A stretch of 63,470 nucleotides of DNA, the filler included, from Psammoneis japonica (Eukaryota), in assembly GCA_008632985.1 (NCBI GenBank). It is 3 parts of 3 records of this genome, joined end to end, with 100 filler letters (N's around TTAATTAATTAA, not from the genome) between each part and the next. Parts side by side here need not be neighbours in the genome. Positions count along the whole stretch, not along the records: positions 1 to 23,682 come from QPGO01000445.1; positions 23,783 to 47,469 come from QPGO01000432.1; 1 more part is not named here. One strand, written 5' to 3'. The notes beneath the pieces were generated by a model. It was not told where the DNA came from and made no database searches. It saw only the letters and a program-made list of their open reading frames with translations. This document shows, one piece after another, positions 2,029 through 52,736 of the stretch. The number at the start of each line of letters is the position of its first letter. Positions within the stretch are counted from its first letter, which is position 1. The position numbers and the translations under genes were made by a program.

Positions 2029-2404
2029 CCATGCCCACCATCACATCGGCGCTGCAACACCAACAGAGCCACATTGATGTTGTTGCATTCGCCGCTGTGG
2101 CAGAACCGCCATGGTGGGTGATGCCTTCCATTGTCCAACTCATTTTTGGATCCATTCATGTGCTTGCTGTCGATGCTGCTGCTTCTGCTGCTGCAATTTG
2201 ACCACATTCATGCCGGTTGCTGTTGTTGCGCTGTTTGAGACATTGCAGCTGTGAATGTGCTTTGAATTGCAGAAGGGGGGCACGGAAGAGATGCAGGTGA
2301 GCTTGTTTTCAGCATCAAAGCAAGTTGCGTTGCTGTCTCTTCCGTTGTCATTTGTTGCTCAACACCCAAACCTCTGCATGCGCGCTGGCTCATGTTCTTT
2401 TCTT

Positions 2405-5400
2405 GCATCAGAGTTCATTGAGATTGCCGCTGAAGTCGCGCGAGAGAGTCAGAAACACCGTGAAGAAAGAGATGCACGGATCGCAGAACTCGAGCCAGAA
2501 TGCACGAAACAGTCGAAGGCGAAAGCCCGAATGCCACAAAACCAATGCTGCACCGAAGAAACCAAACGAGTCTTTCGGAAAATCAATGCGTGCAAAAAGT
2601 CAGAAAACTCCAGTGTGCAAACTGTTCAAATTCCAGCAGATCCTCGAGATGACTCAAAGACATGTGAGAATTGGACAACGACAGACGCTCCAGACAACGT
2701 CGAATCTGCACTTCAGCACTGCAATCAACGCCATTTCGGGCAGGCACACGGAACTCCTCCCACGGTTCCTGTCTTGTCAAATCCAATGATGGAGATTTCA
2801 CGTGCATCCAGGAAGACTTCGCCAACCAGCGACGACGATTGCACTTCTTGCCACGACAGGAACATTCCAGCAATTGTCGGATTGTGTGCGAAGAGCAATG
2901 GCATGCATGAAAGAGCAGTCAAAGTCAACATGGCGACTTTGCATCACGCGCGCCACTGGCTGCACACTCTTCTGGGACTCGCCAAACGATGTTGTTCTCA
3001 TTCCTCTGAGTGTCCTTTGTGTGGAACAGGACAAGGCAGTGGAAATTCTCCCTGGCACTGGAACACTCTGTGCAGCAGACTCTTTGATGTTTTCGATGCA
3101 GAAGCTGTCGGATCACATTTCGAAACCCCGGACGGACAGTTTTGCATTTGAGTTTTCAACCGAGGACATGTCGACGACACTTCCAAGCAAGTGAACGACT
3201 TTAGAGCCAGCCCTCAGCCTTCTGCTTTCGAGTTGTCTCAATCTCTACAATCGGACAACCAGTTGTGGTGTGATCCACTGGATGCGGCCGGGCACAAACC
3301 AGAATTGCCAAAATGTTCTTTCCACACCATCGAGTGGGACTTCACGGAATGTGGCGAACCATGCATCCGCCCTCACCACGATGACATCGAAGTGGAAATC
3401 TTTTCTGCAGATCGTTCTGCTTCCAGGTGCAGCACGCAATTGTCTGCATGTGCGCCTCACAAAACCTTGGGACACTGCATGGCTCCGACAGGCACACAGA
3501 AGACTCAACTGAAGAAGTTGCTCCACAAGAGCAATGCAGTCTCCCCATTTGTCCAATCATGTCCTTTGGACAGAAGAGAAACATGGCGGTGCCATTGTGC
3601 TTGTCATTTATCTTCGATGACATGCGCGCTGGCAAATTCAAACTTCCTCCCCAAAGAACTCCAACAGGTCCAACAGAAGGCCATGCGGACGATTTTTGCC
3701 AAATGCGGACACAACAGGAACACCAAACAAGCAATCTTGTGTGGACCGCAAATCCCTTGGAGGAGGCGGGTTTCGATCACTGGACGTCAAGCAAGGAGTG
3801 GCCCAACTGCAACAATCGTTGAAGCACTCGAGAGGGGTCAAACACTTGCAGCTCGGGGAGGACCAACCGCACAAGCTTCTTCACATTGCCGCAGCGTGGA
3901 TCCAACTGAACTTGGGAACTGGCGAGAGTTTCTTGTGGGACGTCGACACCGCATTGCCTCATGTGGAATCTAGATGGCTCGCATCTGTTGGGCTGTTTTT
4001 ACAGCAGATCAAAGGCCGGGTGTTTCTGCGCCACAACGGGGTCCTTCCACTTCAACGAGACAACGACCAGTGCTTGATGGATGTTGCTTTGCATTCCCAG
4101 TCCTTTGCCGCACGAGAGATCCGGTGGCCAAACTGTTGCCGTCTGCACCTGAAAGTCTTGTCTGTTTCAGATGTTGCTCTGTCGGATGGAATGACGCTGG
4201 ATGGGTCAAAAGCACAAGGGGAACCGTCATTGCAGAGCAGTGTCGGTGCACTCAACAACATCGAGCAGTGCAAGCCATGCCAGCGAGCATGGAAAGTCTG
4301 GAAGAAATTTTGTCCAGCCCTGTGCCATCCGAAGTCACTGCGCTTGAAGGAACCCCCAGGAGATTGGCTTCTGCCACCATCCCAGATGAGAGTGCAGTCA
4401 ACTGCGTGCTTTTCTCCATCTGAGGAACACTTGCATGTGCGCTCTCCAACCGGCTGTGACACATTTCAAGCAAACAGGACCATCGCTGATTCTGTCAGAG
4501 AGATGGAGACTGCACCACATCCTTCCGATTCTTCTTGTCCAGTTGAGGTGTCTACCATCAAGGATGGACGATGGCATTTTGAGATCCCGCGCACTTCATC
4601 AACCGCTTTCCACTCTCCGACCACTCCAGATTCCTTTCTGTCGCATCTTCAGGGACTCGACAAGTGGGAATCTGTGCCATTTGAAGACTTGGTCTTTCAT
4701 GTTTCTCCACGAACAGTGGTTCGACACTTTCTTTCGTCTCATCTCACCGCAGGCAGTGATGGATCGGTCCAAGAAGGAGCCACCTTTGGGTGGACCATTG
4801 CCATGGATGGTGCACCACCAGTGGATCATGCAGGGCCAGTTTTTGGGAAGACTCCGTCCTCTCACCACGCAGAAGCTTGCGGCATTCCATCCATTGCAAG
4901 ATTCATCTGCCGGCTGTGCGAATGCTGCCGCGTTGCCGTTCCTTTGGGTGCAGTGATTCATTGCAATGACAAAGCACTGGCTGACTGTTTGTCTGAATTG
5001 ACTCCCATCCTGCCGGTGAGTGATCCCGAGAACAACGCACGCGAACAACACGACTTTCACATTCGCTGCCATGGGTCCAACGCTGTCGCTCCGGATTGGG
5101 ACATTTTGAATGAGATCCTCCACACCCAGCAAGCTTTGACGCAACTGTCGGATGCAGCCGATCTCGCTCTGCCTCCAGTGCGATGGGTGAAAGGACATCA
5201 AGACAGGCAATCTCCCGTCCACTCATTGCCGTTAAATGCCAGAGTTAACATCCGAGCGGACAAATTGGCAGGAGCTTGCCAAGGACATTGCCTGCACGAC
5301 ACGAATCAGGTCAAGCACCTGCCACATTGCCGCTCGCATCTGGAGATCAACGGGGGTGCAATCACGACGAATTGCAAGAAACAAATTCGGTGCACTGCTG

Positions 5401-5921
5401 CTGCTCCTGAATTGATGCAACATGTTGTTGAACGGAACAAATGGGATCCTTCAGTGGTTGACCTTGTCAACTGGAATGCTCGCGCGGTTCTGGTGAAACG
5501 TCACTCACAACAGCATGTTGACACAGTCAAACTGGTCCATGACTTGCTGCTGACTGATCTCTTGGAGACTGCACCACATCCTTCCGATTCTTCTTGTCCA
5601 GTTGAGGTGTCCACCATCAAGGATGGACGATGGCATTTTGAGATCCTGCGCACTTCATCAACCGCTTTCCACTCTCCGACCACTCCAGATTCCTTTCTGT
5701 CGCATCTTCAGGGACTCGACAAGTGGGAATCTGTGCCATTTGAAGACTTGGTCTTTCTTGTTTCTCCACGAACAGTGGCTTGACACTTTCTTTCGTCTCA
5801 TCTCACCGCAGGCAGTGATGGATCGGTCCAAGAAGGAGCCACCTTTGGGTGGACCATTGCCATGGATGGTGCGCCACCAGCGGATCATGCAGGGCGAGTT
5901 TTTGGGAAGACTCCGTCCTCT
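2405..5921 (+). mobile_element. Non-LTR retrotransposon (Ambal-like LINE) ORF2 fragment, RT + RNase H, degenerate copy 1
   Basis: RT motifs CGTGQGSGNSP and GHVDD, then 'FAKCG..LCGP..LGGGGF'; RNase H motifs GSDGS, SSHHAEACG, WVKGHQD and NIRADKLA. It lacks ~610 bp at 2779 relative to the copy at 8389-8997, and 5563-5921 re-duplicates ~4505-4862. Confidence 0.88.
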
Positions 5922-6584
5922 CAGAGTGCGCGAAATGCCAAAAATGTGTGGATTTGCATGATGACAATTTGTCAAAATGTTGCAAAAAATTGTTGTTGCA
6001 CAATGACACTCCAACCTCTGGTTGCAAGTTTGCTGTGCCAATGTCGCGACAACTTGTTGAGAATCATGTGTGCCATTTTTCACTGTGCCCACATCGCCAT
6101 TTCTGCCTCCACCTTGTTGCCATGTGCCAATCCATGATTGCACTGCCGCGCAATCCTTGGTTTGTCAATTTTTGCAAACAGGGGTGTGATCACAGAACCA
6201 CTTGCGTGCCTGCTTGTTCCTTCGTTTGCTGCCAGCGACAGTGTCTGGGCCAAGCGGATCCCATGTCGGCACAATCGGGATGTCTTTCTTTTCATTCTTG
6301 TCATGGCTTGACTTTTTCCTGCCTTGCTTTTTCCTCTTGACTGCCGCCTTGAGTTTCTTTTCTTTTTCCTTTCCCTCTTCCTTGGCGACAACGCCTGCAC
6401 AGAAAAAGCATCACCGTCATCTTCTTGTGAGATGCGCGCAACTCTTGAGTCACACACATTGGTCACCCAACTTACGGGCCATTGCCTCCGCCCCAGCAGC
6501 CGAGCACACCGTGTTTCTGAGATTGTCTACTTGCCTTTTTGCCGCCTTTTTTGCCCATTCCTCCCAAGTTCCTGACCAATTTGA
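5922..6584 (-). repeat. Inverted copy of the block at ~13943-14604 (and ~22699-23360)
   Basis: Near-identical reverse complement; the same ORF translations recur on the opposite strand (e.g. 5849..6340+ vs 14186..14578-). Confidence 0.9.
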
Positions 6585-7632
6585 GGAAAACAAACGTGTC
6601 GTTTCAAGGAAAACAAACACGTGGTTTCAAGGAAAACAAACATGTCGTTTAAAGAAAAACAAACATGTCGTTTCAAAAAAAACAAACATGTCTTTTCAAG
6701 GAAAACAAGCACATCGTTTCAAGGAAAACAAACGCGTTGTTTCAAGGAAAACAAACATGCATTTTCAGAGAAAAAAAAAATGTCTTTTCAAGAAAAAACA
6801 AACATGTTCAAATGTGGGTGCAGCTGAAGCACAAAACAACTCATCTTGTGTGGCCCACAAACTCTTGGCGGTGGTGGGTTTTGACCGCCAGATGTCAAAC
6901 AAGGAGTTGCTCAATTGTGGGCACTGCTCAAGCATTCCAGAGGCATCACACATCTTCATCTGGGAGAGGGTCAACCCCACAAATTGCTGCACATTGCAGT
7001 CTCATGGATCCAACTGCACTTGGGGACAGGCGCAAGCTTCTTGTGGGGCGCAGATGCTGTTCTCCTGCACATGGAATCGTGTTGGTTTGCTTCCGTCAGT
7101 GCGCTCTTGCACAGAATTCAAGGCACACTCATGTTGTTTCAAGAAAAACAAACACGTCATTTCAAAAAAAAATGTCATGGGAAAACAAGCTTGTCTTTTG
7201 AAGGAAAACAAACGCGTCGTTTCAAAGAAAACAAACATGTTGCTTCAAAGTCATCTCAACAAACATGTCGTTTCAAGGAAAACAAACATGTCTTTTCAAG
7301 GAAAACAAACGTGTGTTTTCAAGGAAAACAAACACGTGGTTTCAAGGAAAACAAACACGTGGTTTCAAGGAGAACAAACATGTCATTTCAAGGAAAACAA
7401 GCGTGTCTTTTCAAGGAAAACAATTGTGTCTTTTCAAGGAAAACAAATGTGTCGTTTCAGGGAAAACAAACATGTGGTTTCAAGGAAAACAAACATGTCT
7501 TTTCAAGGAAAACAAACATGTGTTTTCAAGAAAAACAAACATGCTGTTTCAGGGAAAACAAACATGTCGTTTCAAGGAAAACAAACATGTTGTTTCAAGG
7601 AAAACAAGCGTGTCTTTTCAAGGAAAACAAGC
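6585..7632 (+). repeat. 23-bp satellite arrays (6585-6808, 7131-7632) flanking a LINE fragment
   Basis: Same unit as 1-2028. Confidence 0.95.
6805..7130 (+). mobile_element. Short fragment of a diverged LINE subfamily embedded in satellite
   Basis: Translates FKCGCS*STKQLILCGPQTLGGGGF...QPHKLLHIAVSWIQLHLGTG, homologous to but clearly diverged from 3700-4020. Confidence 0.85.
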
Positions 7633-8009
7633 GTGCCATGCCCACCATCACATCGGCGCTGCAACACCAACAGAGCCACATTGATGTTGTTGCATTCGCC
7701 GCTGTGGCAGAACCGCCATGGTGGGTGATGCCTTCCATTGTCCAACTCATTTTTGGATCCATTCATGTGCTTGCTGTCGATGCTGCTGCTTCTGCTGCTG
7801 CAATTTGACCACGTTCATGCCGCTGCTGTTGTTGCCGCTGTTTGAGACATTGCAGCTGTGAGTGTGCTTTGAATTGCAGAAGGGGGGCACGGAAGAGATG
7901 CAGGTGAGCTTGTTTTCAGCATCAAAGCAAGTTGCGTTGCTGTCTCTTCCATTGTCATTTGTTGCTCAACACCCAAACCTCTGCATGCGCGCTGGCTCAT
8001 GTTCTTTTC

Positions 8010-11000
8010 TTGCGTCAGAGTTCATTGAGATTGCCGCTGAAGTCGCGCGAGAGAGTCAGAAACACCGTGAAGAAGAAAGAGATGCACGGATCGCAGAACT
8101 CGAGCCAGATTGCACGAAACAGTCGAAGGCGAAAGCCCGAATGCTACGAAACCAACGCTGTGCCGAAGAAACCAAACGAGTCTTTCGGAAAATCAACGCG
8201 TGCAAAAAGTCAGAAAACTCCAGCGTGCAAACTGTTCAAATTCCAGCAGATCCTCGAGATGATCCCAAGACATGTGAGAATTGGACAACGACAGACGCTC
8301 CAGATGACGTCGAATCTGCACTTCAGCACTGCAATCAACGCCATTTCGGGCAGGCACATGGAACTCCTCCCACGGTTCCTGTCTTGTCAGTGGATCTCGG
8401 ATGTGAAGGAGATGCCATCATGGCTGACCTGATCTCAGACAGTGAGTGCGAAACGGAACAACTGAGCCGGGCTGCATCGTTGCTGATCCAGCATCTCCAA
8501 TGACGCACACCCCCAGCAGTTCCTGGCACCCTTTCTCCTGAAGCCCTGCAGTCAAAGATTGCATTGTGGTCTGAATCTGCCTCTGCATCATTGAAATCGG
8601 GGATTCATTTGGGGCATTGGAAAGCTGTGCATGCTCCTCATTCTCATGCATCTGATTGCGATGATGACGGGAATCCATCCGATCGGAAAGAACTGCTGGA
8701 TTCGGCTCAACAGACTCTTGTGGCAGTGCAGCTCAACTTGATCAATTGCACTCTGAAGTGGGGCTGCTCGTACGAACGGTGGAAAGACATTGTGAGTGTG
8801 ATGATTTTCAAAGAACCAGGCAACAACAAGATTCACAGATTGCGAGTGATTCATGTTTGCGAGGCAGATTTCCAATTGATTGCAAGCGTCAAGTGGCAAG
8901 AGTTGGCTCAAAAATGTGGAGCACCATCACATGTGCAACCCAGGGATCTACGGATGCAGATCATTCCTCTCCACTCAAACACCAGCCGTTTCTTGAAAAT
9001 CCAATGATGGAGATTTCACGCGCATCCAGGAAGACTTCGCCAACCAGCGACGACGATTGCACTTCTTGTCACGACAGGAACATTCCAGCAATTGTCGGAT
9101 TGTGTGCGAAGAGCGATGGCATGCACGAAAGAGCAGTCAAAGTCAACATGGCGACTTTGCATCACGCGCGCCACTGGCTGCGCACTCTTCTGGGACTCGC
9201 CCAACGATGTTGTTCTCATTCCTCTGAGTGTCCTTTGTGTGGAACAGGACAAGGCAGTGGAAATTCTCCCTGGCACTGGAACACTCTGTGCAGCAGACTC
9301 TTTGATGTTTTCGATGCAGAAGCTGTCGGATCACATTTCGAAACCCCGGACGGACAGTTTTGCATTTGAGTTTTCAACCGAGGACATGTCGACGACACTT
9401 CCAAGCAAGTGAACGACTTTAGAGCCAGCCCTCAGCCTTCTGCTTTCGAGTTGTCTCAATCTCTACAATCGGACGACCAGTTGTGGTGTGATCCACTGGA
9501 TGCGGCCGGGCACAAACCAGAATTGCCAAAATGTTCTTTCCACGCCATCGAGCGGGACTTCACGGAATGTGGCGAACCATGCATCCGCCCTCACCACGAT
9601 GACATCGAAGTGGAAATCTTTTCTGCAGATCATTCTGCTTCCAGGTGCAGCACGCAATTGTCTGCATGTGCGCCTCACAAAACCTTGGGACACTGCATGG
9701 CTCCGACAGGCACACAGAAGACTCAACTGAAGAAGTTGCTCCACAAGAGCAATGCAGTCTCCCCATTTGTCCAATCATGTCCTTTGGACAGAAGAGAAAC
9801 ATGGCAGTGCCATTGTGCTTGTCATTTATCTTCAATGACATGCGCGCTGGCAAATTCAAACTTCCTCCCCAAAGAACTCCAACAGGTCCAACAGAAGGCC
9901 ATGCGGACGATTTTTGCCAAATGCGGACACAACAGGAACACCAAACAAGCAATCTTGTGTGGACCGCAATCCCTCGGAGGAGGCGGGTTTTGATCACTGG
10001 ACGTCGAGCAAGGAGTGGCCCAACTGCAACAATTGTTGAAGCACTCGAGAGGGGTCAAACACTTGCAGCTCGGGGAGGACCAACCGCACAAGCTTCTTCA
10101 CATCGCCGCAGCGTGGATCCAACTGAACTTGGGAACTGGCGAGAGTTTCTTGTGGGACGTCGACACCGCATTGCCTCATGTGGAATCTAGATGGTTCGCA
10201 TCTGTTGGGCTGTTTTTACAGCAGATCAAAGGCCGGGTGTTTCTGCACCACAACGGGGTCCTTCCACTTCAACGAGACAACGACCAGTGCTTGATGGATG
10301 TTGCTTTGCATTCCCAGTCCTTTGCCCGCGAGAGATCGGTGGCCAAACTGTTGCCGTCTGCACCTGAAAGTCTTGTCTGTTTCAGATGTTGCTCTGTCGG
10401 ATGGAATGACGCTGGATGGGTCAAAAGCACAAGGGGAACCGTCATTGCAGAGCAGTGTTGGTGCACTCAACAACATCGAGCAGTGCAAGCCATGCCAGCG
10501 AGCATGGAAAGTCTGGAAGAAATTTTGTTCAGCCCTGTGCCATCCGAAGTCACTGCGCTTGAAGGAACCCCCAGGAGATTGGCTTCTGCCACCATCCCAG
10601 ATGAGAGTGCAGTCAACTGCGTGCTTTTCTCCATCCGAGGAACACTTGCATGTGCGCTCTCCAACTGGTTGTGACACATTTCAAGCAAACAGGACCATCG
10701 CTGATTCTGTCAGAGAGATGGAGACTGCACCACATCCTTCCGATTCTTCTTGTCCAGTTGAGGTGTCTGCCATCAAGGACGGACGATGGCATTTCCGAGA
10801 TCCCGCGCACTTCATCAACCGCTTTCCACTCTCCGACCACTCCAGATTCCTTTCTGTCGCATCTTCAGGGACTCGACAAGTGGGAATCTGTGCCATTTGA
10901 AGACTTGGTCTTTCATGTTTCTCCACGAACAGTGGCTCGACACTTTCTTTCGTCTCATCTCACCGCAGGCAGTGATGGATCGGTCCAAGAAGGAGCCACC

Positions 11001-12190
11001 TTTGGGTGGACCATTGCCATGGATGGTGCACCACCAGTGGATCATGCAGGGCCAGTTTTTGGGAAGACTCCGTCCTCTCACCACGCAGAAGCTTGCGGCA
11101 TTCCATCCATTGCAAGATTCATCTGCCGGCTGTGCGAATGCTGCCGCGTTGCCGTTCCTTTGGTGCAGTGATTCATTGCAATGACAAAGCACTGGCTGAC
11201 TGTTTGTCTGAATTGACTCCCATCCTGCCGGTGAGTGATCCCGAGAACAACGCATGCGAACAACACGACTTTCACATTCGCTGCCATGGGGCCAACGCTG
11301 TCGCTCCGGATTGGCACATTTTGAATGAGATCCTCCACACCCAGCAAGCTTTGACGCAACTGTCGGATGCAGCCGATCTCGCTCTGCCTCCAGTGCGATG
11401 GGTGAAAGGACATCAAGACAGGCAATCTCCCATCCACTCATTGCCGTTAAATGCCAGAGTTAACATCCGAGCGGACAAATTGGCAGGAGCTTGCCAAGGA
11501 CATTGCCTGCACGACACGAATCAGGTCAAGCACCTGCCACATTGCCACTCGCATCTGGAGATCAATGGGGGTGCAATCACGACGAATTGCAAGAAACAAA
11601 TTTGGTGCGCTGCTGCTGCTCCTGAATTGATGCAACATGTTGTCGAACGGAACAAATGGGATCCTTCAGTGGTTGACCTTGTCGACTGGAATGCTCGCGC
11701 GGTTCTGGTGAAACGTCACTCACAACAGCATGTTGACACAGTCAAACTGGTCCATGACTTGCTGCCGACTGACAAGATTGCAAATCAACACAACCCAGTT
11801 CGACCGCACCAATGCATCACATGTGAGCATCCGATGGAAGACAGGGACCACATGCTTTGGTGTCCAAACAACGAACAGTGGAGAAGGAAGTTCCTGCAGG
11901 GTCTTTGATGCTGCTGCGACAAGATCGACACTGTGCCTGCTCTCCGAGACTTCCTCCTGGACATGCTTCAAGCCTGGTTTGATGACGAAATGACGTGCTT
12001 CGACAATGTGGACTGTTGATGCAAGGAACTTTGGTGAGCTCAATTGGATGTTGGTTGGAGACAGGTTTTCAACGGCAGATGCTCGCACATGTGGAATCTT
12101 TTGCAATCCGGACACCTGCGCGATTCTGGCATTCTACGACAATGTCAGGAAGAAAACAAACAGCCACCAGATTGGACGGTTCAGATCGGG
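8010..12190 (+). mobile_element. Ambal-like LINE ORF2, degenerate copy 2 (RT, RNase H, C-terminal CCHC-like region)
   Basis: SGIHLGHWKA, IFKEPGNNKIHRLRVIHVCEADF, CGTGQGSGNSP, GHVDD, RNase H motifs, CITC...HMLWC and GWRQVFNGR. Contains frameshifts and TGA stops. Preceded by a ~375-bp spacer (7633-8009) that matches 2024-2404. Confidence 0.9.
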
Positions 12191-12497
12191 TCTTTCAATG
12201 TGTTTGTCTTCAACATCAAACAAACGGCAAAGTTTGTGGCACAATCATGCCTCTTGCCACTCAACGTTTTTGCAAATGCACCTGCCCTGCACGATTCTTA
12301 AGACATTGTAGAATCGCGCTGTAACAAAAAATGTCAAAAGTTGTTGGATGGATCGCTCAACAAGTGCACCGTAAAATGACACAAAATGTCAAAAAAATCA
12401 CGTAGAAATCTACGTGCGCGACATGCGACGTGATTCAAAAAACTGTCGATGTCACAGTTCAGCAGTGCGAGGTCCCACCTGGACCTGGAACGCGTCA
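12190..12497 (-). repeat. Dispersed repeat end, probably a DNA-transposon terminus (other copies ~21500-21804; opposite orientation at 27250 and 35726)
   Basis: About 95 bp (GACGCGTTCCAG...GGGACCTCGCA.TGCTGAACTGTGACATC...CACGTAGA) is shared between scaffolds 1 and 2. Confidence 0.55.
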
Positions 12498-38199: not shown

Positions 38200-40530
38200 C
38201 AATGAATGATTTGCTCAGCATGCTGACTGGGCTTTCATTTCATGACAGGAAGAGCACTCTCAGAAAGCCAGTTGACAACACCATGCGCGTGTTGAAAGTG
38301 AACAACAGCAATGGCAAGAAGGACAAAATGTGGCGACAGGCACCTCTGGTTGAGAGTGTCAGTGGTGTGATTTGTCCACGTGTTGAGGCTCTGGCGAACA
38401 AAGGCATTCTTGTCAAGTCCTCAACAGCAACCAGACTCAGTGATGGCACACTCATTGACCCTTTCAGTCAGCCAAACCACAGCATGCTGCAGTGCTTGGC
38501 ACAAAGTTGAGCCTGCACTTTGACGTGTTAAAAAGTTGAAACCATGGCAAAAGCACAAAGGAAAGAGACAATCTGTTTCCTGGCCTGTTTAACACAAGGG
38601 TGCATCTTGAGTTGACAAATTGGCTGATTGCAAAGACATGCTTGACAACACACAATGATCTGACAAAATGAGGACTGTCCAAAATTTTTGATTTTTAAAA
38701 CCTCAGTGAGTGAAAGTTTTGAGGTGCGTGGACATGCAAGGTGTCTGTCAACAGTTGTGTGGCACCAAACTGCTTTCATTTCTCATGTCAATGTGTTCTC
38801 CACCCATCACACTTTTTGCTGTGCTTGCACCAGCATGTCATTTTGATTTACAATGTGGCAAAGTGTGGCGTGGAACTCTGCACATTTTGTGCACTGCATG
38901 CTGTGGTTTGGCTGATTTCTGAAAACTGAAAGGGTTTGTGGCAATTTAAGTTTGGAGCTGCAGTTGTGAGCAGCACAGACCCAAGCAGCCCCAACTTGCT
39001 TGATCTCATTGCCAATCTTGACGCACCAGACACGTGTGAAAGCCTGAGAAAGAAGTTGCTCAACAACTGAAAACATGCTTTTGACACCCACCTCTTTTGA
39101 AAAAAGGAGGCTCTTGTCCAGTGTTGTTTGCACACAACATGGCTGGAGCAACATGACCACATCAGTCTGTTGGCAAACAACAAAGCAGCTGAATGCCCTC
39201 CTCCAGCCCAAGCCAAAAGCCGGTTGCCCCTGTTTCAACAACAGAGAGCACCCACATCAAGACCCTTCTTGCTGTCAACAACCATGCATGGGAGCTGCGG
39301 TCCATTGACACACAGAAACAAACAAGGAGGTTGAGATGCCTTTTTGTGCAAGAATGGAGCAGACCAAGGTTGATCAGATGAAGCCAGAGACTTGCGTGCT
39401 TCACACCATTCCTCTTTGTGGTGATGCTCAACTCATTGACAACACCCTTGGCCTGCAAGGATGCAGCACCTCTGCCCTTCCCCTCTGCTTTCTCTGCAAC
39501 ATTTCCCTTGAAGCACTGGTGCAGTCAAAATCAAAGAATGCAGCTGCAGGAACAGAGCTGTGGACATGGCTGCTGCAGCTGAGCAACAGCTTGAGAACAT
39601 CCCAAAGAGCAAAACAAAGAAGAAACAAAAGCAAACAGCTGAGACAAGTGGGCCAGCCATCAACAAATCTTTGACTTCAGCTGACACTTCAGTCATGCCC
39701 TTCTCTCCTCATTGCATGTTTTGAAAGCAAGAGTCTCAAGAGCACCAAGGAAAAAAGAGCAAAAGCTGAGCTGCTCTGAGCAGCTTGGAATCAAGTTCTG
39801 CCAAACTTTGAAGCAGAGAAGTGTCCCTGTTGCAAACACACAGAGAGGAGTGTGAGTCAGCTCAACATTTCTCACAACTCAAGACAATCTGCCCTGCTCC
39901 AGAGGGTCTGTTGTCTGACATTGGTTCCTGCCTCAAACACCACTGAGGGAAATGCAAAGAGTGCTCTGGAGTCAGTCACTGGCGGCAAGCCTCCCCATTG
40001 GCACCAAGCACAACCCATTTTGCGGCAGATCATTTGATGGAAACAACTGCTTCAGAATGATGCACAACTTCAGTGCACTGATCTGTGCCCTGCAGAATGC
40101 ATCCAAAGATGAGTTGGATGAAATGAGATCAAAAATGGGTGCTGCAGCAACCAAACAAGAGAATGGTTTTGGCACATTTCAAAAGATCTTGCCAAGATTT
40201 GGGTCTGCTGAGATGTCAGATGAGCCAGACATTGACAAATTCAAAGAGGATCTTGAAAAATTCAGGGAAATTTGTGACAGGTCTGTGACAACTGAGATCC
40301 ACCAACTGATGGAGCAAGCTTGGCAATGTTGAAAAAGTGTGCAGCAGACGCGCTCCACACTGCAAATGAGAATCACTCTGAATGAGCTGTTTTCGCTCTA
40401 AACAAAAAATGAACAGAGCATTTTGCTCCGATTGCAAGTGCCAAACAATTAATTGTGGCTTTGCTCTGTTCAAGCCACAGTCAGAGCGACATGCTCTGTG
40501 CATGAGACAATCAGAGCAAAATGCCAACAT
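38200..40530 (+). pseudogene. Highly degenerate DDE transposase, Chapaev/Transib-like
   Basis: Motif order FKFG...PSSP...LDAPDTCESL; LCGDAQLIDNTLGLQGCS..PLCFLC; LHV; CGRSFDGNNC. This resembles the GD..GLxG..PCxxC / FxGNxC signature. Many stops and frameshifts. Confidence 0.6.
38468..38915. mobile_element. 448-bp MITE-like insertion with perfect 20-bp TIRs
   Basis: TCAGCCAAACCACAGCATGC at 38468-38487 and its exact reverse complement at 38896-38915. No clear TSD. Confidence 0.7.
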
Positions 40531-40997
40531 TTGCCCTGTTTAACCGCATTCAGAGGATGCCTTCGATTGAGTGCAATTGTTCAGGGCATTCGCTTCAAAC
40601 AACTGCAGCCTCCTGCGACCTTTTACATTCTCAGAGCAAATGGTTTTTCTTCAAAGCAAACGAACAATGAACACACACACACACAATGAGACGCAATGAT
40701 GGACGATTCAAAGCATCATTGGCGCACATGCACGCACACATTCATGGTTGCCAGTCAATGCTCGTAATCTAATCTCGTCGTTTTTGTTTGTGGCAATCTG
40801 TTGACGAGCATCGTTGTTGCTCCATTGTTGTTGATTGTCGCCTGTGTCGGCGCATCGCACACACAACATGATTTTTGCATTTCCACCTTGTTTGTCTGTG
40901 CAAGTCATGGCCTCCACAGCCTTCTCCACATGCTGCAAACATTGCTTCTCGACTGTTCCATTGACTCAATGTGACAACTCCAACAGCATCGTAAACA

Positions 40998-43900
40998 TGA
41001 GTGATTGCCTCTGTTCCGGCAAATGTCTCAACCCGGAGTGTTCAGTTGATTCCTTTTTTGTCTGCGAATGCTGCTGGAACAGCAGCAACACAAACAGCGG
41101 TGGTCGTCATCTTCCAATTCTTAAAGATTGGAAAACCTGCGTCAAGCACGCCAAAACTCCAACTCATGTGCAATCCTTTGAAGCTTTGAAAGCCGCACCA
41201 ACAAGCAGTGTAAATGCCGTGTGTGCGCCGGCGGAGCCTGCACACGACGAATGTTGGTGCAACGATGACAATGACGCCTCTGTTTCCGAGAGCAAGGAGC
41301 CTTCCAACCAAGATGATTGGGTTTACGACGTCAATGATGCCGGCTCACGTCCTCCATTGCGCGTTGATGATCTCCGACAAGGTTTTGATCCGGACTCCAA
41401 CAGCCCGGCCTTTTTTTGGTACGAGCATTTGCACCCCGGACAAGGCATCCAGAAATTGACAGCTGACGCTTTCGAATTGCCCGTCACCGAGGTGACCAAA
41501 GAAGAGGCCCATTTTTCACTTGTGATGGCTAGCCTGCTTTCACAACTCACCGAGAAACAACGTGAATTGTTGGCAGAATGCATGCTGCAAGCCACAAACA
41601 GCCGTGATCCAGACTTGTCCATTTTTCGTCGGACTCGTGTCCCCACTTCTGTGAAAGATTTTGAAATGTTGCATTTGTCCAGCAAACGTGCCATTGTGCC
41701 AAATTTGCCTCATCCTGTTCCCAGGAAAACCGATGATGGCAGTCATTCCTGTGTTTCCTTTAAAGACGTGCTTGCAAATGAGTTGGCAAAAGCCACGCAA
41801 TTTGACAAGTTCCATTTTGATGCGGACGTCATTGTTCAAGATTCACAACCTGCCATTTTGCGCACACCGGCGGCGCATTCCTTGTTCATGGAACTTAAAG
41901 AAGATGTCGACGGTTTTGTGTTGTGCATTTGGGTGCGAGAATGGCGTGATGACTTCGATCCCAACGGCACGAAGAAGTCACGCAATCAAGTGTGGCTCAA
42001 CACGTGCACCTGCTGCCCTCCTCCCAATTCTTCCAGTGGACGCCACACCCACTTCATGGCAATGTCGTCCAAGGGAGAAAATCATGAAGTTGTGGAGACA
42101 ATGTTTGAACGCGAACTGCAGTCGTTGTCTGAAGAAAGCCATTGGTTTTGCCATGGCGGACTGCAGAAGCTCATGTGGGTTGAAGCTGGCAAACTCAGTG
42201 TTTGTGTGGATCGGCCTGAATGTTCCTGCATGTTTCGTGTTGGAGACCACAATGGCAGCCATTCAACGTTTTGGGAACATGCCTGTTGTGCAGATGGAAA
42301 CTGTTCTTTCAATCACTTGCCTCATTGTCAGCTCTGTCGCAAAGCACATGTGAGCAACCATTTTAGCACATCCGAGGATCCTTCTGATGTCGCCGACAAT
42401 TCACAGGAAGAAGGAGCACCAGTGGATGGCGCAGTTGCAATCAACGTTCCTCCTGTTTCTGGCACATGTCCACACAATGCTTGTGCATCCTGGAATGTGT
42501 TCGACACTGCGTTTCGTTTTCTGGCTCCGGCTGACTGCCCCTGTTCACATGACCAACGCGAAGGTGCACCGAAACCTCCCACTGGCAGGGAAGTGACTGT
42601 CTTCAACCCGTCGGCACATGACATCCAATCCACTCAAGACTTGGCCACAGATCCATCCACATCGACCGATTCTTCTCGTTGCAGATGCAAACGCCAACGT
42701 GTGGCCGCCCCAAGACAATGGTTGGCCTCCATCAAACTCACTGTTCCCTGGTTGCAGCAAGCGATCGTGTTTGCGCATCACAACATGAGAACACATCCGC
42801 CGGGCACCCCGAGTGCCAAGCGCTTTTGGACCAAAGCTAACCTCACGGCCCATCTTCGTACTTGTGCCGTCATCCAACGCCACATCGACACAGTGCACGC
42901 AGCTGCAAAATGCAATCTGCCTTGCCCAACACATCCAGCACCTTGGCTTAATCCCAAAGCACTTTCACGTTGTCATCATGCACCAATGCACACCATTGGT
43001 CTGGGCAATGTTAAAAGTGATTTCGAAATGATGTCCAAATTGTTCTCTCGATTTGAACTTCAGGCAACCTTTGGAAAGCAAGCAAACAAATGCTTGCGGT
43101 CCATCCAGTCCCTCCGATCAACCAAACATTTTGCGGCTCATCCACTGTCCACCAGCAAGTGGGGCACAGGTCCCTGGGTCAGTGAAAATTGCTTCTTTTG
43201 GGCAAGGACAGTAAAATTTGTGGTTGCGCTGCCTGCGCTTCACCAACAACGGGTGATGGACAATCACTTGGATTGTGCAGGTGTGTCGCGGATGTTGCTT
43301 CGATTCGCTTCTGCCACACAAGCTTGTCTGAGCCGAGTCATGTCTTCGGAGCGCGTTGTTGGGGACCTTCACGAAATGGTTTTGATGCATTTGGATGCAA
43401 TGGTCGAGATGGACATGTGGTTGATGAAAGCACCCTCAGATGAGGCAGACAATGATGCCGCAGAAGGCGACGGTGAAGTTCAGAAGAAAAAGAAAAAAAG
43501 GTGAACTTTGTGAAATCTGTTTCACTTGGAATGCTGGGAGTCGCGGAATCCCACCAACATGATGGACCGGCCATTCTGCATTGGGAGGGTGACGATTCTG
43601 GAGAAAGTGGTGTGCAAACTGTGAGGCCAGAGGCCAGCATCAAACGCAGCAATGCAGGCTGGCAAACAATCGCTTTGCGTCACATTCACCAACAGGCAAC
43701 CATTTCTTGGCTTTTAGAACGTGACAGTGAGAAAGGTTCATCGAAGAACAGACATCTAGATGGCATCTTCAAAATCTGCAGCAACTGGAACACATTGTTG
43801 GAGGCAAGACAGCAATGCCTTCCCTTTGCTGGCCTTGTGTCGTCCGATTGCACTGTGTGGTTGTTGTTTCGACCAGTGGGTGAAAAAGGAGCCACTTGCT

Positions 43901-44205
43901 CCTCTGTAACTGCAGTTGCTTTAGAATTTGTGGATGAGGAAGGTGAAGAAATTTTGGACTTGTGTTGGATGGCGCCAGTTCAAGTGACAGACAGGAGAAA
44001 ATCATTTGACGCGGTGACAGATCTTTGCAACAGTTTGGGACATCAGTTTGTGCTGGCATTGCCAAGGATGGAAGATGATGGTGAAACGTTCCTAAACAGC
44101 TTTCATTGTGTCAGCCATCTGTGGAATGAAAGAACCAGAGATGGATGCTTTGTGAAAACGGAACTCAGCTTGGACGTTTTTGACGATTGGTTGACAGCCG
44201 GCTAA
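40998..44205 (+). pseudogene. Large DNA transposase (CACTA/Mirage/Chapaev- or Plavaka-like), frameshift in the A-run at ~43490
   Basis: N-terminal Cys/His finger; WRDDFDPN..KSRNQVW; VDRPE; PMHTIGLGNVK; WEG...GE..VQ..RP. Only 2 Tyr in the 889-aa ORF. Confidence 0.65.
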
Positions 44206-44408
44206 CCATCAACTGCTCTGTCATCCGTCTCGGTTGACAATCCAGCCTGTGTGGGGGAGACAATGGCATGAGCAGTGCACGTGCTCCAATGGTGGATAGA
44301 CCCGTGAAGGAGCAGCGCACATGCTCTTTTGTTTAAAGACGCACTGTTGTGGCCGACACGCAGCTAGCTGCGGGGGACAAGAAGGACATGCGAGCTGGGC
44401 ATCTGCTC

Positions 44409-47400
44409 TCATTTCATGTTCCTCTTTCTCTTTATGAAGCAGAACTGTACAGATTGGTCCCTCATTGCGTTTGACATTTTGTTTTTGGCCAAAATGTCCA
44501 ACATCACCTCTGGTGGATTAGACAGCAGTTTGTCAAAATTGAACTCAAATGCAATTTGAATGGGACCATGATCCCAGGTCGACCCGGCCCAATCATTGTC
44601 CTCACACAGTTCTTTGGCAATCTCCTCCATCTTTTTTTCCTCACTTTTACATGAAAAGTTTTGGATTAATCCACCGGGAGGCAGCTCTTCGGGGTCACTG
44701 GAACCATCAAAGTGACAAAGAAAATTCGCCTCATCGTGGAAAACAAAAAATGACATTCCTGCAAAACAGACATCGCAGTGGTTTACCCTCCCTTTGCTGA
44801 TCCAGAAGCAAAACATTTTGCAAAGAATGTTCTCAACAAAACGAATGGTGAAGTGAGTGTCTTTCTTGTCATCACCCCCGGGGTTGTTCAACTGCACGGT
44901 GAATGCACCCTGTGTGGTTTGAGCCAAACGGAACATGTCCGCATCGTCCATCTTGCCCAGCCCACATTCTTCGGCAATTTTTGTGTCAGGGAGGGAATCC
45001 TTTTTGCAGTGGCAACAATGCAGCATCCAAACAGGAAGCTGGCCAATTTCTGCCATGATCGCAATCGAATGATTGAGATGCAAGACGTCGCATTGCGGGG
45101 AGAATTCAGACAACTGATTCATCAGTTTCTTGTAAATGGAGACGATGTCTTTGTTTTGTGGCTTGTTTGCATGCTCATTCCAAATGTCACAAATCCACTT
45201 TCCCTTTTTGTCATTCCAATTTTCCATTCAGCCTTGGTTGGCAAGGGTGGTCTCTTGCTGCGTGACGCACATCGTAGAGGGATGCCTCTAGAGTGTGCCT
45301 CTTTCACATGGACCATCATTTCGTAAATGAGACATCCCAATCCGTGGGGGTCGCTTGGTGGCTGGAAGGCATTAACGGATAAAAGAACCAACGCAACTGC
45401 TCCAAAGCAACATGACTGCGCCGGGTGCACCTCGAAGCAAGTCTGAACAGCGACAATCTGCGGCAACGCAAGTGAGAATTTGTCAATCATTGCAACAATG
45501 AAGTGTAGAAAGAGCTGGTGGCATGACGTTGGTTCCATGTTGCAGTCGCCTTTTAATGCATCGATTCCTTTGCATCCCTTAAATCCTGTCAAGTGATCAC
45601 AGATGATTGCCGGCTCCAGTCGTTGCCGGTGCACGGGCAAGTTTTGGCAGGTGCGAATGGCTCGTGTTGTGATGGGCAAGGCAAGTCGAATCCTCTTCTC
45701 CGCAGTTTCTACAGAACTGCGGGTGCAAGCAATGACAGCATCTCTTGTTTCTCCATCATTTGTGATTTTTGAAACAGACAAAACTGGGGTCATGTCTTTG
45801 TTTTGGCCGTTGCATTCATCTGAGTGGCAATCCGTAATTTTGCCAAATTTGGCATTCGCCAGATGCAGTGCCTCCACGACATTGTTTGCTGAGGCATCCG
45901 GCAATGAACCTGCACAGTCTTGATGTCGGTTTTTCATCTCTTCATCGTGCCACAATCTAGATGTAAAAGTGGGATTCAGTGTCTCTGCAGTTTCAGACAT
46001 TGACTCAAAAAAAGGCATTGCTTCCTCAGTCCCTTTCCCAACTCAAGGCCGTGCAACACCATCAGCATGGCCTTCCCTTGCAGTGCTTGTGTTGGTGCAA
46101 ACGCCGAAATCTGCAAAGTGGTCCTTTGGTTGACGATGGGTCCCAGTTTTCTTGGGCTTGTTGCTTTTCTTTTTCTGAAAACGTTTTCTCTTGCCAGTTT
46201 TCTTGCCAACATTGCCTTTCCTTGTTTTCTTTCCCTGGTTGCTTTTCGACTCACGTTCATGGCATTTGTCAATCAGCACGCGCGATCGGTCCCAGTCAAT
46301 GCGGCAGATTGGGTGTTTGTTTGGAAAGTGGTCAAGCACCAACATGAAGTCATTGCAATGGTCGGAATCAACATCATACAAGGACCATTTGATGTCAGTT
46401 TCATCCTGTCCAAGTGTCAACACCAAATCCGGAATTGGCACTTGGCAGTGGGGGATGTCTGCTCTGCTTGCCAAGTGAACCTGCAGTTTCGACTGGAAGA
46501 CAACATGCAGATGGGTGGCACACTTTTGCCTGTGTTCTCCAGACAGTTTCCCCAAATTGTCAAGTGCTTTGGCTTTTCCAGAATTATGATGGAAGCAAGC
46601 ACTGTTCATCTCCTCAAACACAAAAACAACATTGAACATGTTTTTGGCACGCAAGCTCTCTTCTTGCAGCAGGGAACGGGACAACACCATTTTCTCCCGC
46701 CGAGTCTTGCAGTTGCCAGTGAAAGTTGGACGCTGCATCTGCAAGGGCAGTGCTGCCTCAAAAGCGCTTGAATGGCAATCAGATGATTCGTCTCTGCTTC
46801 CATTGGGCAAATCAGAATCAGAGAAATCAATGGGAAAAGCTGACACAACTGCGCCATCATGCCAATGCGATGATGATTGGTCGCTCTGACTTGAGAAAAC
46901 AGAGTCAATGACATCACTGTTTGTTGATTGTTCCTCGACGTGATGCACAGAAGCCGAGTCCTCACAGCGTTTTGCTTCTTCCTGCATGTGCTGTGCACTC
47001 AGCAAGCAAAGCAACTGGTCTGCTGGTCTTCGCTTGCGAGGAGGTGGAGACCGTCCCAGGGGAGATTCCAGGCTGCGTGACCTGGATGTGGCAGATCTTG
47101 TGCGGTGTGAGATTGGACTGCTGCTTCTGTTTCTGCGGAGTCGCATTTGACAAAATGGGACCATGCCACTGTTGGCAGGTTGACTTGTTCTGCTTGAACT
47201 CCTTGAGCGGATGCTGTCATCTGCAGAACATGCGGGAGGATGGCTTTTGTCCCAACCGCGACTCTCAGATTTCCTCGATGTACCCACCTGTGCGAGCGCA
47301 ACGAATGCCTGGGTTTGCGAACATCGATCGACCCCGACACCTGGATGGTGACCTCAACATTGTGGAGACCTGTTTTTTGACCTGGAGGGTGACCTGCACC

Positions 47401-47460
47401 TGGATGGTGACCTGTGCGGTGACCTGTGTCTACGCCGAGGTGACAATCTAGACCTTTTGT
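44409..47460 (-). pseudogene. Degenerate convergent ORF(s) with an RS-rich N-terminus, probably the accessory gene of the adjacent transposon
   Basis: Chain of overlapping minus-strand ORFs (46043..47287, 45122..46018, 44409..45227); RSPSR repeats at 47335-47455; TpA-depleted like its neighbour. Confidence 0.5.
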
Positions 47461-47469
47461 TGGAAGAAA

Positions 47470-52731: not shown

Positions 52732-52736
<5 letters not shown>

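What the first reader, a model, noticed from the sequence alone, without database searches (positions are those of the whole stretch)
2029..47469. Surviving TpA sites share a protective context (TYTA / TARA)
Seven of the 8 TpA in 2029-5921 sit in TTTA, TCTA or their complements TAAA/TAGA (3202, 3246, 3609, 3971, 4000, 4553, 5233). The same pattern recurs elsewhere (TCTAC, GTAGA, TCTAGA, TTTA at e.g. 8949, 19469, 25997, 27666, 28605, 43757, 45288, 47449). ATAT, GTAC and ATAC are almost absent from the heavily hit repeats. This implies an extended sequence or DNA-shape preference, which fits an enzyme better than general GC bias and gives a fingerprint for identifying it.
Basis: partly seen in the sequence, partly recalled or inferred. 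Interest (0 to 1): 0.78.

Follow-up and report, generated by a model that had tools for sequence, protein, structure and literature searches.

The report
Flank rule for surviving TpA sites
In the repeats of this eukaryotic DNA nearly every TA has been turned into TG or CA, and the few TAs that remain sit mostly in TTTA/TCTA (or TAAA/TAGA), which gives a six-base fingerprint of the unknown editing process.

Summary
In 2029-5921, 7 of 8 TpA lie in TYTA/TARA. In non-redundant TpA-depleted sequence, 127 of 185 TpA do. The figures for comparison are 1763 of 6999 TpG/CpA sites in the same DNA and 81 of 303 TpA in the weakly depleted part of the window (p about 1e-19 and 1e-34). All three contigs in the window show it. 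Only the two bases on each side matter.

Survival multiplies across the two sides. TYTARA sites are as frequent as in the reference (ratio 1.0). One-sided sites have ratio 0.24 and unprotected sites 0.028. Protection is relative: in the most depleted kilobases TYTARA sites are gone too.

Product asymmetry suggests, with moderate support, that the resistant form is TA*RA on the edited strand.

The underlying process, TpA to TpG/CpA hypermutation of repeats and foreign DNA, was described in a 2026 preprint on Bigelowiella natans. Its main text gives no flank analysis.

ADAR, polymerase eta and the published ADAT2 DNA context do not fit. A TadA-like reading frame fits only in outline.

The enzyme and the organism remain unidentified.

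The parts
1..49200 (.). TpA-depleted repeat DNA. TpA rho is 0-0.24 per kb and CpA/TpG rho about 1.5-1.9. It spans two and a half assembly pieces.
2029..5921 (.). Discovery segment. It has 8 TpA, 7 of them in TYTA/TARA. Positions 2772-5557 are a 98.3% copy of 8991-11772.
52001..55500 (.). Second TpA-depleted block (also strongly CpG-depleted), used together with 1-49200 as 'depleted'.
1..1217 (.). 23-bp satellite (unit GTCTTTTCAAGGAAAACAAACAT). Further arrays lie at 1756-2023, 6584-6807, 7180-7630, 15502-16313 and 18055-18980. It was masked in the final counts because its few TpA are variants of a TA-free unit.
25729..28250 (+). Copy A of a 96.2% repeat pair. Its subregion 27414-28143 holds 17 TG<->CA double differences with copy B.
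34205..36703 (+). Copy B of the same pair.
28900..34213 (+). LINE-like element with intermediate depletion (TpA rho 0.10-0.20). An Exo_endo_phos endonuclease domain lies at 30648-31607. Many other copies are present in run X1.
23538..23682 (+). Telomere-like array of TTGGGG and TCAGGG units at the end of the first assembly piece.
23683..23782 (.). Artificial contig joiner N44-TTAATTAATTAA-N44. A second one lies at 47470-47569.
49664..51973 (+). Host-like gene (AMP-binding enzyme) with TpA rho about 0.5. Part of the reference set.
57321..58934 (-). Host-like gene (glycosyl transferase family 90) with TpA rho 0.6-0.85. Part of the reference set.
59128..62274 (-). LTR retrotransposon pol (aspartyl protease, RT, RNase H, integrase), partly depleted (TpA rho 0.11-0.37). 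Its 59128-61000 part lies inside the reference set.
3969..3974 (.). Example of a doubly protected site, TCTAGA. The 22 TYTARA sites in non-redundant depleted DNA have unrelated surroundings.

Best explanation
The repeats in this window have been through a DNA-level hypermutation that turns TpA into TpG or CpA. This is an A:T to G:C transition at the A of 5'-TA-3' on either strand. It is the process recently seen happening in real time in Bigelowiella natans.

The rate at each strand depends on two further bases. Read on the strand whose A is changed, TA*Y is lost fastest (T, then C, at +1). TA*G is intermediate and TA*A slowest, and an A at +2 slows it further. So TA*AA and TA*GA are the resistant forms.

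Because TA is its own complement, a site survives only if both strands are slow. That is why the survivors pile up in TYTA/TARA, and why TYTARA is essentially undepleted until the heaviest exposure.

Shown here: the context bias, its two-base reach, its multiplicative behaviour and its increase with depletion. Inferred: that destruction rather than re-creation sets the pattern, which strand's flank is read, and that the agent is an enzyme. The most likely agent is a polynucleotide adenine deaminase acting on DNA, which contacts T(-1), A(0), +1 and +2.
For: (1) Extreme and specific depletion. Across the window TpA rho is 0.14, and about 0-0.1 in most repeat kilobases. CpA is 1.60 and TpG 1.57, while ApA, TpT and ApT are 1.30, 1.31 and 0.86.

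(2) Context bias in non-redundant DNA. 127 of 185 TpA have a TY or RA flank, against 1763 of 6999 TpG/CpA sites and 81 of 303 reference TpA. It holds without the discovery sites (115 of 176) and in each contig.

(3) Reach. Positions -1 (p = 3.5e-8) and -2 (p = 1.8e-13) matter. Positions -3 to -6 do not (p = 0.27-0.89).

(4) Dose response. The measure is TA/(TA+TG+CA+CG), depleted over reference, with flanks grouped into three classes: P (TT or TC 5' of the TA, read on either strand), M (AT, CT, GT or CG) and U (all others). PP is 1.01 (22/171 vs 6/47), MP 0.69, MM 0.30, PU 0.24, MU 0.071 and UU 0.028. A multiplicative per-side model reproduces the totals: 187 observed, 187.4 fitted, chi-square 68 over 53 cells.

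(5) Kinetics across depletion tiers, from least to most depleted. UU falls 0.197, 0.025, 0.001, 0.001. PU falls 0.160, 0.074, 0.034, 0.017. PP runs 0.133, 0.161, 0.165, then 0 of 42.

(6) Natural experiment. The 96.2% pair 25729-28250 / 34205-36703 has 17 TG<->CA double differences. CpG decay at the rate seen in that pair (76 shared, 24 single) predicts about 1 by my arithmetic. Of the 17, 3 have a P flank, against 9 of the 11 TpA kept in both copies. Over all aligned pairs, 16 of 19 shared TpA have a P flank against 12 of 62 doubles (p = 5e-7).

(7) Direction. At sites with the protective flank upstream and an unprotected flank downstream, TG:CA is 757:475 against 105:113 in the reference (OR 1.7, p = 3e-4). 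PM sites give OR 2.0 (p = 0.002). The TG share at PU sites rises with depletion: 0.48, 0.58, 0.61, 0.61.

(8) Other copies of these repeats in run X1 differ almost only by transitions, 341 against 29 transversions. Of the 32 events shown, 7 are TG<->CA doubles and 10 are TA<->TG/CA changes.

(9) The preprint 10.64898/2026.01.13.699255 (Results and Discussion read) reports 230 of 231 de novo mutations in two integrated viral regions as A>G or T>C, and states that all of these fall on TpA. It also reports TpA-depleted coding sequences enriched for reverse transcriptase and DDE domains.
Against: The reference is small (7.95 kb). It includes part of a partly depleted LTR element, so absolute survival ratios are rough; PP rests on 6 of 47.

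No unedited consensus was available, so the ancestral state is inferred and not observed. In the satellite the few TpA are clearly new variants of a TA-free unit, so some survivors elsewhere may also be new.

The direction test shows no shift for MU sites (OR 1.0). Allele pairs support the direction only weakly: 10 for, 3 against, 5 neutral, p = 0.09.

The 17 doubles cannot be separated one by one from CpG-derived doubles. As a class, doubles have the same flank spectrum as CpG sites (p = 0.61).

Protection is not absolute (0 of 42 in tier 1). The tiers were defined by TpA count, which biases that cell.

All data come from one 63-kb window. The organism and enzyme are unidentified, and identity with the B. 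natans process is assumed from likeness.
Confidence: 0.72

Rival explanations
1. Same hypermutation and same flank rule, but the chemically altered base is the T of TpA. An example would be hydroxylation or another thymine modification in repeat chromatin that later pairs with G. The enzyme would then read NN-T*-A, with TY-T*-A as a poor substrate.
For: Sequence data cannot tell A>G on one strand from T>C on the other. The direction test says equally well that the mutated T is the one preceded by an unprotected flank. A read of 5' flank plus target is the layout I recall for AID/APOBEC-type DNA editors. Thymine hydroxylation marks repeats in dinoflagellates (abstract and passages of 10.1101/2023.11.30.569493).
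Against: That preprint reports a TG-rich peak motif (GTTGTTGTTG), not TpA, and no mutational consequence. By my recollection, 5-hydroxymethyluracil opposite A is not strongly mutagenic. No thymine-modifying system is known to give clean T>C transitions.
Confidence: 0.12
2. The residual TpA are mostly new. They would be re-created from TpG/CpA by ordinary or context-biased C>T transitions after the original TpA were erased. TYTA/TARA would then reflect where TpA is made, not where it survives.
For: In the 23-bp satellite the TpA are single-monomer variants of TTTCAA/TTGAAA-type consensus. TpG/CpA sites outnumber TpA about 38 to 1 in depleted DNA (6999 vs 185), so the supply is large. TA<->TG differences between young copies occur at about the background rate per TpG/CpA site (my arithmetic).
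Against: Context-blind re-creation would give the TpG/CpA flank spectrum (25% with a P flank), not 69%. TYTARA sites keep the reference TpA share (0.129 vs 0.128) through tiers 4 to 2 while unprotected sites fall 200-fold, which a re-creation balance would not be expected to hit. 26 TpA are shared by copies of 94% identity or more, against 10 unshared, so most predate those duplications. Other genomic copies carry TpA in unprotected contexts (GATAA, GATAG, TGTAC) where the window copy has CpA.
Confidence: 0.1
3. The surviving TpA are kept by selection because they lie in functional motifs of the elements, such as stop codons followed by A, a TCTAGA palindrome or signal sequences.
For: TAA-A and TAG-A are stop codons plus A. 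TCTAGA recurs: 5 of the 22 doubly protected sites.
Against: The 22 TYTARA sites and the other survivors have unrelated surroundings and lie in many different, mostly decayed repeats with no recognisable domain. The effect is graded over all 16 flanks and disappears in the most depleted windows.
Confidence: 0.03
4. Artefact of repeat non-independence, base composition or assembly.
For: The window is highly repetitive: 17.7 kb were masked as satellite or second copies. It also contains artificial linkers with TpA.
Against: The bias survives clustering, masking, removal of the discovery sites and a split by contig. Flanks at -3 to -6 show nothing, and A at -1/-2 is depleted rather than enriched, so AT-rich patches are not the cause.
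Confidence: 0.02

Closest known systems
TpA-targeted A:T>G:C hypermutation of integrated viral and transposon-like DNA in Bigelowiella natans (Mettrop et al., bioRxiv 10.64898/2026.01.13.699255; Results and Discussion read)
   Same: Both show TpA loss with a CpA+TpG gain. Transitions dominate. Repeats and foreign DNA are hit while ordinary genes are spared. The TpA frequency in hit sequence is about 0.002 (8 in 3.9 kb here; 0.0018 in their low-TpA coding set).
   Different: Their main text stops at the dinucleotide: the words context, flanking, logo and trinucleotide occur 0 times. Their supplements could not be opened. Here the depletion is far deeper and contiguous over tens of kb, including satellites (rho about 0.03, against 0.45 for their viral region). 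A two-base flank rule, its multiplicative form and a strand assignment are added. Whether the window comes from that species is not known.
Repeat-induced point mutation (RIP) of fungi
   Same: It is a repeat-targeted, dinucleotide-specific transition hypermutation that ruins transposons.
   Different: RIP turns CpA into TpA and makes repeats AT-rich and TpA-rich. Here the chemistry runs the other way (TpA lost, GC gained). RIP's duplication sensing and link to meiosis are untested here.
TadA / ADAT2-ADAT3 polynucleotide adenine deaminases
   Same: They need a 5' U/T next to the target A and make contacts to both the 5' and 3' neighbouring nucleosides (passages of PMC10354150). That is the same set of positions read here: -1, +1, +2.
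   Different: The only natural ADAT2 tested on DNA prefers GAA for adenine and TCG for cytosine (PMC10354150). Here the 5' T appears obligatory and TA*AA is the most resistant form. TadA's natural UACG (recalled) would predict TA*CG as a good site. Here it is relatively resistant (factor 0.63), though methylation of that CpG may interfere.
ADAR editing of repeat-derived double-stranded RNA
   Same: It causes A>G changes in repeats on both strands, with a 5' U favoured (as stated in the preprint's Discussion).
   Different: ADAR accepts a 5' A nearly as well (recalled), but ApA is enriched here (rho 1.30). Satellites and telomere-like repeats are hit, which argues for action on DNA. The 3' order here (T, C, then G, then A) is not the recalled ADAR 3' G preference.
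CpG methylation decay
   Same: It also yields TpG/CpA and TG<->CA doubles between copies. It is active in this window and is the commonest recent change: 253 CG<->TG/CA differences in pairs of 75% identity or more.
   Different: It cannot remove TpA, and it accounts for about 1 of the 17 doubles in the 96% pair.

Membership tests
TpA>TpG/CpA hypermutation of repeats/foreign DNA (B. natans type) | TpA depletion coupled to CpA+TpG enrichment in blocks | tested here: met
   TpA rho is 0-0.24 and CpA/TpG rho 1.4-1.9 over 1-49 kb and 52-55.5 kb. [quoted passage not shown]
TpA>TpG/CpA hypermutation of repeats/foreign DNA (B. natans type) | Changes at TpA are transitions to TpG or CpA | tested here: met
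   In the two 61% LINE-related pairs, TpA in one copy faces TG or CA in 16 of 25 cases. There are 17 TG<->CA doubles in a 96% pair. X1 copies show 341 transitions against 29 transversions. The ancestral state is inferred.
TpA>TpG/CpA hypermutation of repeats/foreign DNA (B. natans type) | Targets are transposons, viral or other non-host DNA; ordinary genes are spared | tested here: met
   Satellites, a LINE-like element and unclassifiable repeats are hit. The AMP-binding and GT90 genes keep rho 0.5-0.85, and an LTR element is intermediate.
TpA>TpG/CpA hypermutation of repeats/foreign DNA (B. natans type) | New mutations arise at a rate about 1000-fold above background in living lines | not testable with these tools
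   No mutation-accumulation data exist for this genome, and only assembled contigs of one sample were available.
Fungal RIP | C>T at CpA giving a TpA excess and AT-rich repeats | tested here: not met
   The opposite is seen: TpA rho is about 0.03 and repeats are about 50% GC against 44-47% in genes.
ADAR-type signature | 5' neighbour U or A tolerated; double-stranded RNA substrate | tested here: not met
   ApA is not depleted (rho 1.30), and non-transcribed-type repeats (satellite, telomere-like) are affected. The ADAR preferences are partly recalled.
TadA/ADAT2-type signature | 5' U/T required; 3' neighbours read; known DNA context GAA (BjADAT2) or UACG (TadA, recalled) | tested here: inconclusive
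   The 5' T and the reading of +1/+2 fit. The preferred 3' bases do not: TA*AA has factor 1.45 (most resistant) and TA*CG 0.63. BjADAT2 prefers GAA.
Polymerase eta WA signature | Mutation at A in both TA and AA, with many transversions (recalled) | tested here: not met
   ApA is enriched and transversions are rare.

The most novel reading that the evidence does not exclude
It would sweep satellites, retroelements and even telomere-type repeats. TYTARA would be its blind spot, so the hexamer rule could be used to pick the enzyme out of candidate deaminases and to predict which TpA invading elements can keep.
Probability: 0.35. Interest if true: 0.8.

Novelty: new member of a known kind. Interest (0 to 1): 0.6.

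Why it matters
TpA-specific hypermutation is a very recently reported genome defence with no known enzyme. A quantitative flank rule gives a direct biochemical test for any candidate. The rule has a two-base reach, about a 70-fold per-strand range from TA*AA to TA*TA (about 16-fold to TA*CT, the most susceptible flank with surviving sites), a multiplicative form over the two strands, and a probable assignment to the 3' side of the edited A.

It already argues against ADAR-like and polymerase-eta-like mechanisms and against the one ADAT2 DNA context on record.

It also shows that the process reaches simple satellites and runs almost to completion over tens of kilobases. Anyone annotating such genomes needs to know this, because stop-poor fake open reading frames and unrecognisable transposons follow from it.

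Tried and rejected
- The whole genome is not held, so no family consensus or genome-wide hexamer table could be made.
- Earlier scan notes: three look-ups, nothing found.
- Organism placement failed. The AMP-binding ORF has one database relative at 41% identity. The protein-atlas neighbours are generic AMP-binding clusters from fungi, bacteria and viruses.
- Pfam found no domain in 42 of the 52 stop-to-stop ORFs scanned. Most of the blank ORFs lie in the depleted repeats, and many long ORFs there are probably artefacts of missing TAA/TAG.
- Sequencing runs: no RNA holder was listed. Only contigs of one sample could be laid, and 331 further differences were not shown, so the copies in X1 could not be used for a full spectrum.
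- General GC bias or biased gene conversion was rejected because only TpA, among the A/T dinucleotides, is lost.
- AT-rich refuges were rejected because positions -3 to -6 show nothing and A at -1/-2 is disfavoured.
- Strand bias at the kilobase scale was looked for and not found: TG/(TG+CA) is mostly 0.42-0.56.
- My first hand count of allele-pair directions looked stronger. The scripted strict count is 10 vs 3 (p = 0.09), and that is what I report.
- Literature searches for the same phenomenon elsewhere returned only the B. natans preprint as relevant. They were, with terms TpA, hypermutation, TpG, CpA, TA dinucleotides, adenine deaminase and genome defense.
- A search for the nuclear telomere repeat of chlorarachniophytes gave no relevant title or abstract in its listing, and I opened none of the papers.
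Full report
**What the window is.** The 63,470 bases are eukaryotic and mostly repeats. They are three assembly pieces joined by two artificial N44-TTAATTAATTAA-N44 linkers, at 23683-23782 and 47470-47569.

The window contains:
- arrays of a 23-bp satellite;
- large segmental copies: 2772-5557 = 8991-11772 at 98.3%, and 25729-28250 = 34205-36703 at 96.2%;
- a LINE-like element with an endonuclease domain at 30648-31607;
- an LTR retrotransposon pol on the minus strand at 59.1-62.3 kb;
- two ordinary-looking genes, an AMP-binding enzyme at 49664-51973 and a family-90 glycosyl transferase at 57321-58934.

No whole genome is held for the window, and the organism could not be placed.

**The background phenomenon.** Over the whole window TpA has an observed/expected ratio (rho) of 0.14. 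CpA is 1.60, TpG 1.57 and CpG 0.67. ApA, TpT and ApT are 1.30, 1.31 and 0.86. Kilobases up to 49 kb hold 0-13 TpA each. The gene-bearing kilobases hold 33-61 (rho 0.51-0.85). So one A/T dinucleotide is being removed from repeats. This is not a general drift to GC.

**The observation.** It checks out exactly. There are 8 TpA in 2029-5921, 7 of them in TTTA, TCTA, TAAA or TAGA. All 8 other named sites are as described. Against the local TpG/CpA background (28.4%), 7 of 8 gives p = 9e-4.

I defined 'depleted' as 1-49200 plus 52001-55500. The 'reference' is 49537-52000 plus 55501-61000. The reference holds two genes and part of the partly depleted LTR element, so it is a conservative reference.
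- Raw counts are 160 of 228 against 81 of 303.
- Collapsing repeat copies by flank similarity gives 130 of 192 clusters (OR 5.7, p = 2e-19).
- Dropping every discovery site gives 115 of 176 (p = 2e-16).
- Masking satellites, the second copy of every repeat pair of 75% identity or more, and the linkers leaves 34.8 kb. There, 127 of 185 TpA (68.6%) have TY upstream or RA downstream.
- The comparison figures are 1763 of 6999 TpG/CpA sites (25.2%), 316 of 1234 CpG sites (25.6%) and 81 of 303 reference TpA (26.7%).
- Each assembly piece shows it: 17/22, 99/143 and 11/20.
- ATAT, GTAC and ATAC/GTAT number 2, 9 and 5 in the depleted 35.0 kb, against 21, 26 and 47 in 7.95 kb of reference.

**Anatomy of the context effect.** To remove composition differences I expressed TpA as a share of all Y-R steps (TA+TG+CA+CG) in the same flank. 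That sum is unchanged by both TpA and CpG decay.

Only the two bases next to the TA on each side matter. Position -1 gives p = 3.5e-8 and -2 gives p = 1.8e-13; positions -3 to -6 give p = 0.27-0.89. A at -1/-2 is disfavoured, so surviving TpA are not simply sitting in AT-rich patches.

I grouped flanks into three classes, read 5' of the T on either strand: P (TT or TC), M (AT, CT, GT or CG) and U (the rest). The depleted/reference ratios are:

| Class | Depleted | Reference | Ratio |
|---|---|---|---|
| PP | 22/171 | 6/47 | 1.01 |
| MP | 48/544 | 20/156 | 0.69 |
| MM | 17/447 | 16/126 | 0.30 |
| PU | 57/1491 | 55/348 | 0.24 |
| MU | 23/2373 | 79/575 | 0.071 |
| UU | 18/3392 | 127/665 | 0.028 |

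This is close to a product of one factor per side. A fitted multiplicative model gives per-side factors from 1.45 (TT) and 0.84 (TC), through 0.75 (AT), 0.63 (CG), 0.48 (CT) and 0.46 (GT), down to 0.09-0.24 for the rest and 0.02 for TA. It reproduces the counts.

The 22 doubly protected sites (TTTAGA 8, TCTAGA 5, TTTAAA 5, TCTAAA 4) have unrelated surroundings.

**Kinetics.** I sorted kilobases by TpA rho. From least to most depleted, the TpA share of unprotected sites falls 0.197, 0.025, 0.001, 0.001. One-sided sites fall 0.160, 0.074, 0.034, 0.017. Doubly protected sites run 0.133, 0.161, 0.165, then 0 of 42. The 'protective context' therefore slows the loss and does not prevent it. The last cell is biased by how the tiers were defined.

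**Evidence that TpA is destroyed.** Between copies, the commonest recent change is CpG to TpG/CpA: 253 such differences in pairs of 75% identity or more. That change also makes TG<->CA double differences.

But the 96.2% pair has 76 shared and 24 singly changed CpG. By my arithmetic this predicts about one CpG-derived double, and 17 are seen. They cluster at 27414-28143. They are best read as ancestral TpA hit independently in both copies after duplication. In the same pair 11 TpA are intact in both copies and only 4 are intact in one, a bimodality that itself implies fast and slow sites. Nine of the 11 intact sites have a P flank, against 3 of the 17 doubles.

Over all aligned pairs the figures are 16 of 19 against 12 of 62 (p = 5e-7). 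As a class, though, the doubles cannot be told from CpG sites by flank (p = 0.61).

Contigs of run X1 show that these families have many more copies. Those copies differ from the window almost only by transitions (341 vs 29). Of the 32 events shown, 7 are TG<->CA doubles, 10 are TA<->TG/CA changes and 14 are CpG changes. They include copies that still carry TpA in unprotected contexts where the window has CpA. 331 more differences were not shown.

**Which flank is read.** TA is palindromic, so TYTA on one strand is TARA on the other.

At sites with the protective flank upstream and an unprotected flank downstream, the excess product is TG, not CA. Counts are 757:475 against 105:113 in the reference (OR 1.7, p = 3e-4). 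PM sites give OR 2.0 (p = 0.002). MU sites show no shift (OR 1.0). The TG share at PU sites rises with depletion: 0.48, 0.58, 0.61, 0.61. Allele pairs between copies lean the same way only weakly: 10 for, 3 against, 5 neutral, p = 0.09.

So the A that gets changed is the one whose 3' side is unprotected. On the edited strand the rule reads T-A*-N-N. At +1 the order of susceptibility is T, then C, then G, then A, and an A at +2 is protective. TA*AA and TA*GA are the resistant forms. Equivalently, a mutated T is one not preceded by TY. I hold this with moderate confidence. It rests on a small reference.

**Mechanism.** The best-supported reading is an enzyme-like, DNA-level editing of TpA in repeats with flank-dependent rates. 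A site survives only when both strands are slow.

Re-creation of TpA from the abundant TpG/CpA surely contributes; the satellite's few TpA are new variants. But it does not explain three things:
- the 69% against 25% contrast in flank use;
- the constancy of the TYTARA share across tiers;
- the sharing of most TpA between young copies (26 shared, 10 not, in pairs of 94% identity or more).

Selection on motifs and repeat or composition artefacts are unlikely. Whether the altered base is A (deamination to inosine) or T (a modification that pairs with G) cannot be decided from sequence.

**Comparison with what is known.** A 2026 preprint on Bigelowiella natans (10.64898/2026.01.13.699255; I read the outline, Results and Discussion) reports that 230 of 231 new mutations in two integrated viral regions are A>G or T>C, and states that all of these fall on TpA. 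The rate is about 1000-fold above background. It also reports a set of 324 coding sequences with TpA frequency 0.0018, enriched for reverse transcriptase and DDE domains. It proposes an ADAT2-like DNA adenine deaminase.

This window fits that process in every feature testable here. It shows the process carried much further (rho about 0.03 over tens of kb, against 0.45 for their viral region) and extended to satellites.

The preprint's main text has no flank analysis: context, flanking, logo and trinucleotide occur 0 times. Its supplements, which list the mutated sites, could not be opened, so I cannot exclude that a figure or table shows flanks.

The fingerprint compares with candidate mechanisms as follows:
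- ADAR does not fit. ApA is untouched, non-transcribed-type repeats are hit, and the 3' order differs (ADAR preferences partly recalled).
- Polymerase eta does not fit. ApA is untouched and transversions are rare (recalled signature).
- The one natural ADAT2 assayed on DNA prefers GAA and TCG (passages of PMC10354150). Here TA*AA is the most resistant form.
- TadA-type enzymes do contact the 5' and 3' neighbours of the target (same paper). The layout fits but the letters do not.
- Fungal RIP is the mirror image in chemistry.

Three further searches found nothing else like it.

**Verdict.** The underlying process is already in print as a preprint. The hexamer rule, its multiplicative form and the tentative strand assignment appear to be new, and they are directly usable to test candidate enzymes.

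Noticed in passing
23538-23682: A telomere-like array at the end of the first assembly piece mixes TTGGGG and TCAGGG units. These are exactly the two products expected if TTAGGG repeats had their TpA turned into TpG or CpA. The organism's true telomere repeat is not known to me.
   Followed up: partly
23683-23782 and 47470-47569: N44-TTAATTAATTAA-N44 blocks are artificial contig joiners, so the window concatenates three assembly pieces. Their TpA must be excluded from any count.
   Followed up: yes
37001-40000, 48001-49000, 52001-55000: These repeat blocks are also extremely CpG-poor (rho 0.10-0.26), while other equally TpA-poor repeats keep CpG rho 0.5-0.9. The two decay processes are therefore not coupled one to one.
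   Followed up: no
whole depleted part (CGTA/TACG sites): TpA next to a CpG survives better than other TA*C sites (per-side factor 0.63). Methylation of the neighbouring cytosine may interfere with editing.
   Followed up: no
24781-26446: This segment aligns to its own reverse complement at 76% identity (a large decayed palindrome), with 47 TG<->CA double differences between the arms.
   Followed up: no
2255-5783 and many others: Stop-to-stop ORFs of 250-890 codons without any Pfam domain are common in the depleted repeats. With TAA and TAG nearly absent, only TGA can close a frame, so long ORFs here are not evidence of genes.
   Followed up: partly
14607-15473: There is a 412-bp tandem duplication (2.1 copies, 89% identical) next to a satellite array.
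   Followed up: no
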